Source of the DNA: Escherichia coli | GTDB lineage: Bacteria; Pseudomonadota; Gammaproteobacteria; Enterobacterales; Enterobacteriaceae | DNA: 64,000 nt | Assembly: GCF_001677475.2 (NCBI RefSeq) | Contig: NZ_CP015229.1 | Direction: 5' to 3' (one strand) | The notes under the pieces: model-generated | What the model was told of the DNA's origin: nothing | The model's input: the letters and a program-made list of their open reading frames with translations, nothing else | Database searches by the model: none | Translations under genes and position numbers: made by a program | In this document: positions 8,669-9,821 of the stretch, in pieces | How the letters are laid out: each line of letters starts with the position of its first letter | How positions within the stretch are numbered: the first letter of the stretch is position 1

Positions 8669-8677
8669 TGTGATCCA

Positions 8678-8699
8678 GAGGCTGGATACTTCCAGCCTC
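8678..8699. terminator. Hairpin between convergent yjeI and yjeJ
   Basis: gaggctgga-tact-tccagcctc perfect stem; no clear T-run on either side. Confidence 0.35.
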
Positions 8700-8717
8700 G
8701 TCGTAAAACAGATGAGA

Positions 8718-9587
8718 TTATTTCGCCTGTGGTGCAGTTTTGCTGGTGGATTGAACACGTAAGTGATGCAGCGCGCGTAAGCATTGATCCTGGGTTAGCG
8801 GTTGGGCGTTATTTGCCGCTACGGTGCGAACATAGACCTGACATGGCACACCCGCGAGTTTTTTCAGTCGGGGGCTGAAATCAAGCATTCGGCGAGTGAT
8901 CGCCTCCACTTCTTTACCCGGCGTTGCTTCACGCGTTTTCACCACTGCGCCGCTAAATTGTTCTTTGCCACTTTCATCTTTAAAGCGGTAAAGCACCGCC
9001 AGATAATGGTTGAACAAGTTATGTTTCCATTCCGGTTGGGAATAGGTGTCATATTCCAGATTGCCATTGTCCTGGCAGTCAACATCGTATAACGGTAGGA
9101 AATCTAACAGTGAGGTAATACGTAATGCCAGTTCACGCATTTCCGCATTGTTAATTGCATGAATGATTGCTCGCGCCAGCATTTCAATCTGCAATTCATT
9201 GATGACTAACTCACATTTGCTACCGTCATGTAGCGTTAATACGAAGGTAAGATTTTCGCCCTGATTATCGGTAAGTTCCAGCGTGTTAACCCGACGATTA
9301 ATATCGGCATTTTTAAGCTCATCAACCAGAATTTCTGGGATATTTTCTGCCATTTTCTTAATGACTTTATCGCGAGCTTGCTCATACTGAAGGCGTGCAG
9401 CAGCATCCAGTTTATGCTTTTGATGCAGACGGCTTTCCAGCGCAATCAGAAGGTCGCGCAGTTCCATGACAGACAGAAAGAACAACGATTCTTTATTGCG
9501 AGGCTCTTTAATTTTCAGCGCCAGTGCAATGAAATTATTACTCTTGCGAATAACACCGGTATTAACACCCTTGATGCTTATGGCCAT
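8718..9587 (-). CDS. yjeJ: Uncharacterised protein YjeJ
   Basis: 289-aa ORF, AT-rich relative to neighbours; recalled as K-12 YjeJ. Confidence 0.8.
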   Translation of the reverse strand: MAISIKGVNTGVIRKSNNFIALALKIKEPRNKESLFFLSVMELRDLLIALESRLHQKHKLDAAARLQYEQARDKVIKKMAENIPEILVDELKNADINRRVNTLELTDNQGENLTFVLTLHDGSKCELVINELQIEMLARAIIHAINNAEMRELALRITSLLDFLPLYDVDCQDNGNLEYDTYSQPEWKHNLFNHYLAVLYRFKDESGKEQFSGAVVKTREATPGKEVEAITRRMLDFSPRLKKLAGVPCQVYVRTVAANNAQPLTQDQCLRALHHLRVQSTSKTAPQAK

Positions 9588-9821
9588 GTAGGTTCTCCCT
9601 AACCATTTCTCAATTAAATAATTAATTTTAATTTATAAGCCAGATAAATGGGCTTGGTAGTAATAGTTGTTAAAATAACATAAATAGCCGTGCTCACTCT
9701 ATATAAACAGAAAAGAAAGGTTAATTATTGGTGTTGGTTATATAAAAAGTAATAACAGCAATGTATATGAATAATTAAAGGTTATGCACCGTGCAAAGAT
9801 TAAACTTCCCTGTTTAATCAG

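What the first reader, a model, noticed from the sequence alone, without database searches (positions are those of the whole stretch)
8669..9821. AT-rich orphan gene yjeJ with a very AT-rich upstream region
yjeJ (289 aa, no recognisable domain) and especially the 234-bp region upstream of it (9588-9821, long A/T runs such as ttaaataattaattttaatttataag) are visibly lower in GC than the flanking groESL and epmB genes. That composition is typical of horizontally acquired, H-NS-silenced DNA. The gene sits between a convergent hairpin and the epmB 3' end with no obvious operon partner.
Basis: seen in the sequence. Interest (0 to 1): 0.4.

Follow-up and report, generated by a model that had tools for sequence, protein, structure and literature searches.

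The report
Orphaned microcin-island gene yjeJ
The AT-rich gene yjeJ is not a recent foreign arrival: it is an old, conserved, H-NS-repressed gene, and it looks like the leftover copy of the last gene of a fimbria-plus-microcin (antibacterial peptide) island that still fills this chromosomal slot in Klebsiella and relatives.

Summary
yjeJ (8718-9587, minus strand) is 45.4% GC, the 4th lowest of 64 ORFs (z -1.6). The 234-bp spacer to epmB is 28.6% GC, in the lowest 0.05% of same-size windows.

- **Not a recent acquisition:** the region matches in 5425 of 5426 complete E. coli genomes. yjeJ keeps the efp-epmB-yjeJ-yjeI-groL order in 42 further genomes of more than 15 genera. It is under purifying selection (dN/dS 0.04-0.18).

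The new result concerns distant YjeJ homologues in Klebsiella, Raoultella, Kosakonia, Budvicia and a Scandinavium-like genome. In all of them YjeJ is the last gene of an AT-rich island: chaperone-usher fimbriae, double-glycine glycine-zipper microcin(s), a HlyD-type adaptor, a C39-peptidase ABC exporter, then YjeJ.
- In Klebsiella the island abuts yjeI-groL.
- In the Scandinavium-like genome it fills the epmB-yjeI slot exactly, and that genome keeps both the island copy and the E. coli-type copy.

E. coli yjeJ is therefore best read as an orphaned paralogue with its own conserved extended -10 promoter. AlphaFold2 (pLDDT 93) gives a soluble three-repeat beta4-alpha protein resembling PUR/Whirly folds. 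Its function is inferred, not shown: immunity-like protection or nucleic-acid binding.

The parts
8718..9587 (-). yjeJ coding sequence (289 aa, Pfam PF15922 over its full length). Predicted to be a soluble three-repeat beta4-alpha protein.
   Evidence: ORF and translation. Pfam. AF2 model pLDDT 92.8, pTM 0.88. No transmembrane segment (maximum Kyte-Doolittle 19-residue window 1.25). dN/dS 0.04-0.18.
9588..9821 (.). AT-rich spacer (28.6% GC) between the epmB stop and the yjeJ start. It holds yjeJ's own promoter and 5' leader. A Scandinavium-like genome carries an 11.7-kb fimbria/microcin island at this position.
   Evidence: composition; RpoD holoenzyme SELEX peak; conserved elements; island between epmB and yjeJ#2 in L061/L066.
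9672..9680 (-). TGtTATTTT, an extended -10-like element conserved from Escherichia to Pluralibacter and the Scandinavium-like genome. It predicts a transcription start near 9665 and a leader of about 78 nt.
   Evidence: Cross-genus alignment of upstream regions. The same motif, TGcTATTTTA, lies upstream of yjeJ#2 in L061. Coordinates were read. Promoter function is inferred.
9696..9724 (-). TTAACC-17-TAGAGT, the promoter proposed for yjeJ from genomic SELEX with RpoD holoenzyme. It is conserved only within Escherichia.
   Evidence: PMC3946193 Table 2. Located in the sequence. Conservation.
9591..9604 (-). GGTTAGGGAGAACC: a Shine-Dalgarno sequence (GGGAG, 7 nt before the ATG) flanked by GGTT/AACC. 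It is nearly invariant across genera.
   Evidence: alignment; coordinates. The leader as a whole shows no significant RNA structure (z -0.05).
8678..8699 (.). Hairpin with a 9-bp G+C-rich stem and a 4-nt loop, between the convergent genes yjeI and yjeJ. It lacks a U-tract on either strand. Other E. coli strains carry a REP/BIME element inserted next to it.
   Evidence: folding, z -2.7 and -4.2; strain alignment.
8315..8668 (+). yjeI (DUF4156 lipoprotein), the fixed downstream neighbour of yjeJ in every syntenic locus, with or without the island.
9822..10850 (-). epmB (EF-P beta-lysylation radical-SAM enzyme), the upstream neighbour on the same strand and the left border of the slot.

Best explanation
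yjeJ is an ancient, vertically kept Enterobacteriaceae gene. It originated as a paralogue of the terminal gene of an AT-rich island. That island encodes chaperone-usher fimbriae, one or two double-glycine-leader glycine-zipper microcins (class II microcin / Cdz-like), a HlyD-type membrane-fusion protein, a C39-peptidase ABC exporter, and YjeJ.

In Klebsiella and a Scandinavium-like genome the island still occupies this slot. In E. coli, and in all 42 syntenic loci recovered from 42 further species-representative genomes, only the yjeJ copy next to yjeI remains. It is transcribed from its own conserved extended -10 promoter inside a very AT-rich spacer and is kept at a low level by H-NS/StpA.

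The protein is a soluble cytoplasmic protein of three beta4-alpha repeats.

The mechanism I think most likely is that it binds the glycine-zipper microcin or its precursor. That would give producer self-protection in island carriers and orphan, immunity-like protection in E. coli.

**Shown:**
- composition;
- conservation and synteny;
- purifying selection;
- the island linkage of homologues;
- H-NS-dependent repression (published data);
- the fold prediction.

**Inferred:**
- the direction of evolution (island loss after duplication);
- promoter identity;
- direct H-NS binding;
- the protective or binding function.
For: **1. Linkage to the island.**
In 8 independent loci a YjeJ homologue starts 12-30 bp after the C39-peptidase ABC exporter gene:
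- Kosakonia radicincitans, L052/L053;
- K. pneumoniae, L054/L055/L058;
- Budvicia, L056;
- an unassigned contig, L057;
- an unassigned contig, L059;
- the Scandinavium-like genome, L061;
- Raoultella, L062;
- K. grimontii, L063.

The usher, microcin, adaptor and exporter are homologous wherever they are present on these loci.

**2. Same slot.**
- In K. pneumoniae, K. grimontii and L059 the island's yjeJ abuts yjeI; in the first two groL-groS follow.
- In L061/L066 the order is frd-blc-sugE-ecnBA-efp-epmB | regulator, fimbriae, microcin, adaptor, exporter, YjeJ#1, GerE regulator, YjeJ#2 | yjeI.

**3. The small ORFs are microcin-like.**
- They carry the leader MKELSV(F/I)EM..(I/V)(S/A)G(G/A), then YSW and a Gly-zipper core of about 105 aa.
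- The exporter has the ECGxAC catalytic-cysteine motif.
- Its best NCBIfam matches are bacteriocin-export peptidase ABC transporters.
- Its DNA matches E. coli mchEF.

**4. No other immunity candidate.**
No small transmembrane immunity ORF lies between the adhesin gene and the adaptor gene in the two modules inspected.

**5. Fastest-diverging component.**
Within modules, identities are: exporter 67-82%, adaptor 55-76%, microcin 42-53%, YjeJ 20-44%. This is the pattern expected of specificity or immunity partners.

**6. Origin of the E. coli type.**
- The E. coli-type clade, including L061 YjeJ#2, nests within the module types in a neighbour-joining tree.
- Two YjeJ paralogues flank one module in L061.

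**7. Composition.**
The island is AT-rich in hosts whose flanking genes are mostly 55-62% GC (groS is 49%). The adaptor is 0.37-0.40, the adhesin about 0.40 and YjeJ 0.39-0.47. This explains the composition of yjeJ.

**8. Conservation and selection.**

**9. Promoter conservation.**
.

**10. H-NS/StpA and netropsin de-repression.**
Against: - Characterised class II microcin and Cdz immunity proteins are small inner-membrane proteins (PMC9746304; PMC5380434). YjeJ is 289 aa and soluble, with no transmembrane segment.
- Full-length YjeJ genes on Serratia plasmids, and a 163-aa N-terminal version after parF/parG-like genes on E. coli plasmids, have no microcin module within 8-9 kb.
- The fold resembles nucleic-acid binders.
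- E. coli YjeJ is basic (pI 8.6) whereas module copies are acidic (pI 5.2-6.1). This could mean a changed function.
- No relic of island genes is detectable in the E. coli spacer, so loss versus never-gained cannot be proved.
- The tree has no support values.
- An AF2 model of YjeJ fused to its microcin was low-confidence and uninformative.
- Near-universal retention in E. coli for a purely defensive orphan is unusual.
- Direct H-NS binding was not shown, and SELEX did not flag the spacer.
Confidence: 0.45

Rival explanations
1. YjeJ is a PUR/Whirly-type single-stranded nucleic-acid-binding protein. Three beta4-alpha repeats would form one intramolecular domain plus a dimerising repeat, as in Pur-alpha. 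It would act as a regulator of the island or as a DNA/RNA-transaction factor. The E. coli copy would then be a co-opted nucleic-acid binder, and its linkage to microcin genes would be regulatory.
For: - The AF2 model has three beta-meander-plus-helix units.
- Other members of the same beta4-alpha fold class are among the top hits: 2it9, 2nvn, MRP2 2gia, StWhy2 3n1h and PBF-2 1l3a.
- Foldseek gives its highest probabilities (0.57-0.85) to PURA repeat I-II structures.
- Plasmid copies sit in backbone and maintenance regions next to parF/parG, SprT-like, integrase, H-NS/Hha and topoisomerase genes.
- E. coli YjeJ has pI 8.6.
Against: - Foldseek E-values are only 0.04-0.2, with target-normalised TM 0.37-0.44.
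- A YjeJ profile finds no sequence-level match to any PDB chain.
- The internal repeats are not detectable by hhalign.
- Module-type YjeJ proteins are acidic (pI 5.2-6.1).
- The islands already carry dedicated regulators (Trans_reg_C, GerE).
- Whirly-like folds also serve protein-protein roles (my knowledge: SsgA).
- Very fast divergence fits a coevolving binding partner better than a generic nucleic-acid binder.
Confidence: 0.2
2. YjeJ is a cytoplasmic holder or export accessory factor. It would keep the aggregation-prone glycine-zipper precursor soluble and deliver it to the peptidase-ABC exporter. The orphan E. coli copy would have been retained for some other client.
For: - YjeJ is constantly placed 12-30 bp after the exporter gene, which suggests translational or operonic coupling.
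- It diverges quickly, in parallel with the microcin.
- It is soluble with multiple repeats.
- Related glycine-zipper toxins aggregate (PMC5380434).
Against: - Known microcin type I export systems need no chaperone (PMC9746304).
- An export accessory should be lost with the island. Yet the orphan copy is kept under dN/dS 0.04-0.18 in 42 further island-free species-representative genomes.
- A second paralogue beside one module fits immunity arrays better.
Confidence: 0.15
3. One reading: yjeJ is a recently acquired, H-NS-silenced foreign orphan with no integrated function. Its AT-richness simply marks xenogeneic DNA.
For: - GC is low for the gene and the spacer.
- Transcription is H-NS/StpA-dependent and de-repressed in the mutants.
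- The family is small and restricted to Enterobacterales, with 99 hits among 1.84 billion representatives.
- Copies occur on plasmids.
Against: - Near-universal in E. coli.
- Fixed synteny over more than 15 genera.
- Strong purifying selection.
- Conserved promoter and Shine-Dalgarno region.
- Protein detected in LB.
- Listed among genes known to be regulated by NtrC or Nac; by the paper's wording, Nac for yjeJ.
- Codon choice unremarkable.
- Not in the HGT-DB-based HTG column.
Confidence: 0.05

Closest known systems
Class II microcin gene clusters (e.g. MccV cvaA-cvaB-cvaC-cvi) and Cdz-like glycine-zipper bacteriocin systems (Caulobacter cdzABCDI)
   Same: The island that carries YjeJ homologues has these matching parts:
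- a double-glycine-leader precursor with a Gly-zipper core;
- a C39-peptidase ABC exporter with the catalytic cysteine motif;
- a HlyD-type adaptor.

Cdz-like systems were already predicted in Klebsiella, Serratia and Pseudomonas, often next to fimbrial adhesins (PMC5380434). Microcin hits occur in nearly all Klebsiella-clade genomes (PMC9746304).
   Different: - The fifth conserved gene is a 280-aa soluble YjeJ protein, not a small transmembrane immunity protein.
- The cinful pipeline's 250-aa cut-off for immunity candidates would have excluded it.
- The window itself contains only yjeJ: no precursor, exporter or adaptor.
PUR repeat / Whirly-like beta4-alpha fold (Pur-alpha, plant Whirly/PBF-2, trypanosome MRP1/2)
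   Same: - Three consecutive beta-meander-plus-helix units.
   Different: - No sequence or profile similarity.
- Structural scores are modest.
- Longer double helices follow repeats I and II.
- Module-type members are acidic.
- Nucleic-acid binding is untested.
H-NS/StpA-repressed AT-rich (xenogeneic) genes of E. coli
   Same: - AT-rich promoter region.
[quoted passage not shown]
- Ancestry in an AT-rich island.
   Different: - Core-genome distribution with conserved synteny.
- Not listed as a horizontally transferred gene, nor in an H-NS hairpin (CHIN).
- Not flagged in H-NS SELEX.
- Expressed at a low level rather than silent.
Orphan immunity genes left after loss of toxin modules (bacteriocin, CDI and T6SS systems). 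Comparison from my own knowledge.
   Same: - A fast-evolving partner gene is retained without the toxin and export genes.
- Extra paralogues lie beside a complete module (L061).
- Copies occur on plasmids.
   Different: - No immunity phenotype has been shown.
- Retention is species-wide and syntenic over many genera, which is broader than for typical orphan immunity genes.

Membership tests
Pfam PF15922 (YjeJ-like) | Full-length match to the family HMM above threshold | tested here: met
   Residues 1-283 match model positions 1-283 of 283, E 2.3e-174. RefSeq names it 'YjeJ family protein'.
H-NS-silenced horizontally acquired gene | AT content clearly above the genome background | tested here: met
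   ORF 0.454 GC (z -1.6, 4th lowest of 64). Spacer 0.286 (lowest 0.05% of windows; 2nd lowest of 33 intergenic regions).
H-NS-silenced horizontally acquired gene | De-repression when H-NS (and StpA) are removed | tested here: met
   Published MG1655 RNA-seq: log2FC 2.61 (delta-hns), 3.25 (delta-hns delta-stpA) and 1.46 (netropsin) (PMC12460168 Suppl. Table 1). The data come from the literature, not from this window's strain.
H-NS-silenced horizontally acquired gene | Physical H-NS occupancy of the locus | not testable with these tools
   - No ChIP track was available.
- The SELEX-based table does not flag the yjeJ/epmB spacer.
- The hairpin column is blank.
- A consensus-motif scan was uninformative: 181 matches against 175 expected.
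H-NS-silenced horizontally acquired gene | Patchy or recent phylogenetic distribution | tested here: not met
   - The region matches in 5425 of 5426 E. coli genomes.
- 42 further species-representative genomes of more than 15 genera share the same synteny.
- dN/dS is 0.04-0.18.
Class II microcin / Cdz-like cluster component (immunity protein) | Encoded next to a double-glycine precursor, a C39-peptidase ABC exporter and an adaptor | tested here: inconclusive
   Met for 8 loci carrying distant homologues. Not met for the window gene, which has no such neighbours.
Class II microcin / Cdz-like cluster component (immunity protein) | Small inner-membrane protein with transmembrane helices | tested here: not met
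   289 aa. The maximum 19-residue hydropathy is 1.25, so no transmembrane segment. The AF2 model is a soluble alpha/beta protein.
Class II microcin / Cdz-like cluster component (immunity protein) | Confers resistance to the cognate microcin | not testable with these tools
   Needs genetics. The AF2 fusion model of YjeJ plus microcin was low-confidence (mean pLDDT 56).
PUR / Whirly-like beta4-alpha nucleic-acid-binding fold | Repeated beta-beta-beta-beta-alpha topology | tested here: met
   Strand and helix order in the AF2 model (pLDDT 92.8):
- strands within residues 2-38, then H40-81;
- strands within residues 99-130, then H131-159;
- strands within residues 163-218, then H225-282.
PUR / Whirly-like beta4-alpha nucleic-acid-binding fold | Significant structural superposition on PUR or Whirly domains | tested here: inconclusive
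- Foldseek probability 0.57-0.85, but E 0.04-0.2 and TM 0.37-0.44.
PUR / Whirly-like beta4-alpha nucleic-acid-binding fold | Sequence or profile homology to PUR or Whirly families | tested here: not met
   - Pfam finds only PF15922.
- A profile of 25 YjeJ sequences finds no PDB chain at E up to 10.
- Internal repeats are not significant.
PUR / Whirly-like beta4-alpha nucleic-acid-binding fold | Binds single-stranded DNA or RNA | not testable with these tools
   No experiment was possible. The pI is 8.6 in E. coli but 5.2-6.1 in module copies.

The most novel reading that the evidence does not exclude
The YjeJ family is the missing fifth component (a soluble, PUR-like, rapidly coevolving immunity or microcin-binding protein) of a widespread fimbria-linked glycine-zipper microcin island of Enterobacterales. 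If so, the species-wide E. coli gene yjeJ is an orphan immunity gene that protects E. coli and its relatives against microcins made by Klebsiella-clade neighbours in the gut.
Probability: 0.3. Interest if true: 0.7.

Novelty: new variant of a known kind. Interest (0 to 1): 0.5.

Why it matters
yjeJ is one of the remaining E. coli K-12 'y-genes' with no function. I found no paper on its family in the searchable library.

Tying it to a microcin export island gives a concrete, cheap experiment: immunity or self-protection assays with the Klebsiella or Kosakonia microcins. It would also add a new, non-membrane type of accessory or immunity protein to class II microcin and Cdz-like systems. Immunity genes in those systems are notoriously hard to find.

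The locus also shows that AT-richness plus H-NS repression can mark a very old, domesticated remnant of foreign DNA. It need not mark a recent acquisition.

Tried and rejected
- **Family libraries.** NCBIfam and PADLOC gave no hit for YjeJ. PHROGs gave only weak partial hits.
- **PDB by sequence.** The single sequence gave only noise. The profile gave nothing.
- **Internal repeats.** hhalign between the three repeat segments was not significant.
- **RNA.** Rfam found no family in either spacer, and the 5' leader has no significant fold.
- **Promoter scan.** The simple sigma-70 scan found no promoter in the spacer. The conserved extended -10 came only from the cross-genus alignment.
- **H-NS motif scan.** Not enriched.
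- **H-NS paper supplements.**
  - PMC4288151 and PMC11335895 do not mention yjeJ.
  - PMC3923964 and PMC3064808 have no held supplements.
  - PMC12219008, a microcin survey, has none held either.
- **Full-text search for the microcin leader peptides.** No paper.
- **Locus search with the broad alignment.** The search for related loci with alignment A1 failed because no stretch was conserved enough, so a closer alignment was used. As a result the genome scan recovered only E. coli-type copies.
- **Relics of island genes.** tblastn in the window and in all orphan loci found none.
- **Allelic replacement within Citrobacter.** Considered because alleles are 75% versus 40% identical to E. coli. Left open, because EpmB identity saturates at 86-92% and species labels are unreliable.
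- **AF2 fusion.** YjeJ, a linker and the microcin with a 7-row paired alignment gave mean pLDDT 56. It is uninformative.
- **The T6SS-survival paper with 15 mentions of yjeJ.** It uses delta-yjeJ::bla only as a linked marker.
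Full report
**What is there.**
The window region is the E. coli groS-groL-yjeI / yjeJ-epmB / efp locus.
- The ORF at 8718-9587 (minus strand, 289 aa) is annotated 'YjeJ family protein' in RefSeq. It matches Pfam PF15922 over its full length (E 2.3e-174).
- epmB (9822-10850) is upstream on the same strand.

**Composition.**
- The ORF is 45.4% GC and the 234-bp spacer 28.6%, against 51.5% for the window.
- The spacer is in the lowest 0.05% of same-size windows and is the second lowest of 33 intergenic regions.
- The gene is the 4th lowest of 64 ORFs (z -1.6). Its codon choice is ordinary.
- The convergent hairpin at 8678-8699 is real.

**Not a recent acquisition.**
- The 1.3-kb region matches in 5425 of 5426 complete E. 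coli genomes.
- A scan of one genome per species found 45 loci.
  - In the 42 loci with a full-length copy and complete flanks, the order is efp <-> epmB -> yjeJ -> <- yjeI, and <- groL follows wherever the stored sequence reaches it. These loci come from Escherichia, Citrobacter, Pseudocitrobacter, Kluyvera, Superficieibacter, Salmonella diarizonae, Trabulsiella, Yokenella, Intestinirhabdus, Kosakonia, Phytobacter, Pluralibacter and others.
  - S. arizonae shows the same order but only a partial yjeJ match.
  - Two short contaminant contigs could not be scored.
- YjeJ identity falls to 40-76% between genera, while EpmB stays at 82-94% and GroL at 93-99%.
- dN/dS is only 0.04-0.18. The gene is therefore functional but fast-evolving.
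- Within Escherichia its dS is about twice that of its neighbours.
- Low GC relative to epmB holds in most genera (mean 0.47 versus 0.54). It has been lost in Pluralibacter and mostly in Kluyvera.

**Expression and H-NS.**
- Genomic SELEX places an RpoD-holoenzyme site in the spacer and proposes TTAACC-17-TAGAGT. No H-NS flag is given for this spacer.
- My alignment of upstream regions over 19 genomes shows two conserved elements:
  - TGtTATTTTAAC, which looks like an extended -10 (window 9672-9680);
  - GGTTAGGGAGAACC, around the Shine-Dalgarno sequence (9591-9604).
- MG1655 RNA-seq in PMC12460168 shows yjeJ at about 120 normalised counts in wild type. It rises to about 735 in delta-hns (log2FC 2.61, padj 7e-43), about 1070 in delta-hns delta-stpA (3.25) and about 307 with netropsin (1.46). 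The 'HTG' and hairpin columns are blank for yjeJ.
- YjeJ protein is detected in LB proteomics.
- The gene is listed among genes known to be regulated by NtrC or Nac; by the paper's wording, Nac for yjeJ.

The 'recently acquired' half is not.

**The family and its fold.**
- Only 99 of 1.84 billion representative proteins match, about 30 of them full length. All members with a source name are from Enterobacterales, apart from one MAG fragment labelled Pantoea.
- An AF2 model from a 25-sequence alignment is confident (pLDDT 92.8, pTM 0.88). It shows three units of a beta-meander followed by helices.
  - 2it9 and 2nvn;
  - MRP2;
  - StWhy2;
  - PBF-2.

  That these six share one beta4-alpha fold class is my own knowledge, not a tool result.
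- Foldseek gives its highest probabilities (0.57-0.85) to PURA repeat I-II, but with weak E-values.
- Against AFDB50 only YjeJ-family proteins and a few uncharacterised Pseudomonas proteins of about 280 aa appear.
- There is no sequence-level link to any solved structure, and the internal repeats are not detectable by sequence.
- The protein has no transmembrane segment. The old label 'inner membrane protein' on Salmonella entries therefore looks wrong.

**The main new result: linkage to a microcin island.**
I looked at where distant homologues (20-36% identity) are encoded. In eight independent loci the YjeJ gene starts 12-30 bp after a Peptidase_C39 ABC transporter gene. Wherever the contig extends far enough, that gene is preceded by a HlyD-type adaptor, one or two ORFs of 108-122 aa, and a chaperone-usher fimbrial operon. 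The loci are:
- Kosakonia radicincitans;
- K. pneumoniae;
- Budvicia;
- two unassigned contigs;
- a Scandinavium-like genome;
- Raoultella;
- K. grimontii.

Supporting details:
- The small ORFs begin MKELSV(F/I)EM..(I/V)(S/A)G(G/A) and continue YSW... with a glycine-zipper-rich core. That is a double-glycine leader plus a class II microcin / Cdz-like toxin. Pfam hits to Bacteriocin_IIc and MccV are sub-threshold.
- The exporter carries the catalytic-cysteine motif. It matches bacteriocin-export peptidase ABC families and, at the DNA level, E. coli mchEF.
- No small transmembrane immunity ORF lies between the adhesin gene and the adaptor gene in the two modules inspected.
- Within modules YjeJ is the fastest-diverging component: 20-44% identity, against 42-53% for the microcin, 55-76% for the adaptor and 67-82% for the exporter.

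**The slot.**
- In K. pneumoniae, K. grimontii and one unassigned contig the island's yjeJ abuts yjeI. In the first two, groL and groS follow. This is the E. coli position.
- The Scandinavium-like genome is decisive. Its order is frdCD-blc-sugE-ecnBA-efp-epmB, then a Trans_reg_C regulator, fimA-papD-papC-adhesin, the microcin, the adaptor, the exporter, YjeJ#1, a GerE regulator, YjeJ#2, and then yjeI.
- YjeJ#2 belongs to the E. coli-type clade and has the same TGcTATTTTA promoter motif. YjeJ#1 is the module type.
- In a neighbour-joining tree the E. coli-type clade nests within the module types, with the plasmid copies outside (no support values).
- The island is AT-rich in its hosts: adaptor 0.37-0.40, adhesin about 0.40 and YjeJ 0.39-0.47, against mostly 0.55-0.62 in the flanking genes (groS 0.49).
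- No complete E. coli genome carries this island, and no relic of it is detectable in the orphan loci.

**Interpretation.**
The most economical reading has three parts.
- yjeJ is a duplicated terminal gene of this island. It stayed behind, with its own promoter, when the rest of the island was lost from (or never fixed in) the Escherichia/Citrobacter/Salmonella-type lineages.
- Its low GC and AT-rich promoter are a compositional legacy.
- H-NS keeps it at a low level.

What the protein does is inferred. Four observations point to a microcin-specific binding or protective role:
- constant operonic linkage to the exporter;
- the fastest divergence in the module;
- an extra paralogue beside one module;
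- survival as an orphan.

Four observations keep a nucleic-acid-binding role, and an export-accessory role, alive:
- the protein is soluble;
- the fold is PUR/Whirly-like;
- plasmid-backbone copies have no microcin genes nearby;
- the E. coli protein is basic while module copies are acidic.

An AF2 model of YjeJ fused to its microcin was uninformative.

**Novelty.**
The gene, its family and its H-NS response are already recorded. The Klebsiella microcin/Cdz-like systems were predicted bioinformatically. I found no paper that mentions the YjeJ family, or links it to microcin systems, in the searchable library. The immunity-candidate size cut-off of the main survey (250 aa) would have excluded it.

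I therefore rate the finding as a new variant of a known kind, of moderate interest. It becomes clearly testable, but the functional claim rests on guilt by association.

Noticed in passing
window 8669-8717 and 9795-9821; L001, L002, L004: E. coli strains differ by REP/BIME insertions in both spacers around yjeJ: about 150 bp between yjeI and yjeJ, and about 160 bp just after the epmB stop. The second carries a roughly 30-bp duplication of the target (TTAAACTTCCCTGTTTAATCAGTTACTGCTG). The window strain lacks both insertions. The AT-rich promoter core is almost invariant.
   Followed up: partly
L003 4262-5231; L004 1811-2791: IS elements hit this locus in some strains. An IS1 truncates yjeJ and joins it to alsA, deleting epmB onwards, in isolate F1053. 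An IS621 sits in the REP-bearing yjeI-yjeJ spacer of strain UTAK-4.
   Followed up: no
window 8718-9587 versus L007, L008, L009: Within Escherichia the synonymous divergence of yjeJ is about twice that of the flanking epmB and yjeI (for example dS 0.41 versus 0.20 and 0.15). Most E. coli genomes are only 95-99% identical to the window here. Weak codon bias, a higher mutation rate in H-NS-bound DNA, or recombination could each explain this.
   Followed up: partly
L014 4060-5778; L038 6968-8686 (also L040, L049): The slot is an insertion hotspot. Citrobacter youngae has an unknown 572-aa ORF between epmB and yjeJ. Kosakonia sp. S29 has a 572-aa ORF that looks like a methyl-accepting chemoreceptor (judged from its sequence, no family search) between yjeJ and yjeI. 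Phytobacter has a gap of the same 2.1-kb size there.
   Followed up: no
L064 8144-9492 (pLAU-OXA4) and about 9 similar E. coli plasmids; L050, L065 (Serratia plasmids): A 163-aa gene covering only repeats I-II of YjeJ sits 28 bp after parF/parG-like partition genes on E. coli plasmids of about 30 kb. Full-length YjeJ genes lie on 18-47-kb Serratia plasmids near SprT-like, Tn3 and integrase genes. One of these plasmids also carries H-NS, Hha and topoisomerase genes.
   Followed up: partly
upstream of yjeJ in L061 11610-11640 and in the L042, L045, L046, L047 alignments: A second conserved upstream motif, containing the palindrome TCCGGA (…AAGTCCGGAAACCGACTCT…), lies about 20-25 bp upstream of the extended -10 in several genera. 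It has diverged in Escherichia. It may be a regulator binding site.
   Followed up: no
L005, L019, L047; AFDB entries A0A077ZBR0, A0A0C2JF96: YjeJ genes, several nearly identical to the E. coli copy, appear in records labelled Bacillus coahuilensis, Bacteroidales MAG, Chryseobacterium sp., Trichuris trichiura and Thelohanellus kitauei. These are evidently enterobacterial contamination or mislabelling in public assemblies.
   Followed up: no
L044 6001-6833; AFDB Salmonella entries: Salmonella arizonae gives only a partial (203-aa) best segment. Many S. enterica serovar entries are fragments of 115-263 aa. This suggests that yjeJ is decaying or mis-called in parts of Salmonella.
   Followed up: no
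window 44770-45296 and 61581-62645: These are other low-GC spots in the window. One is a 125-bp spacer at 24.8% GC before a 133-aa ORF at 38.8% GC. The other is a 264-aa ORF at 42.4% GC with a 270-bp spacer at 32.6% GC.
   Followed up: no
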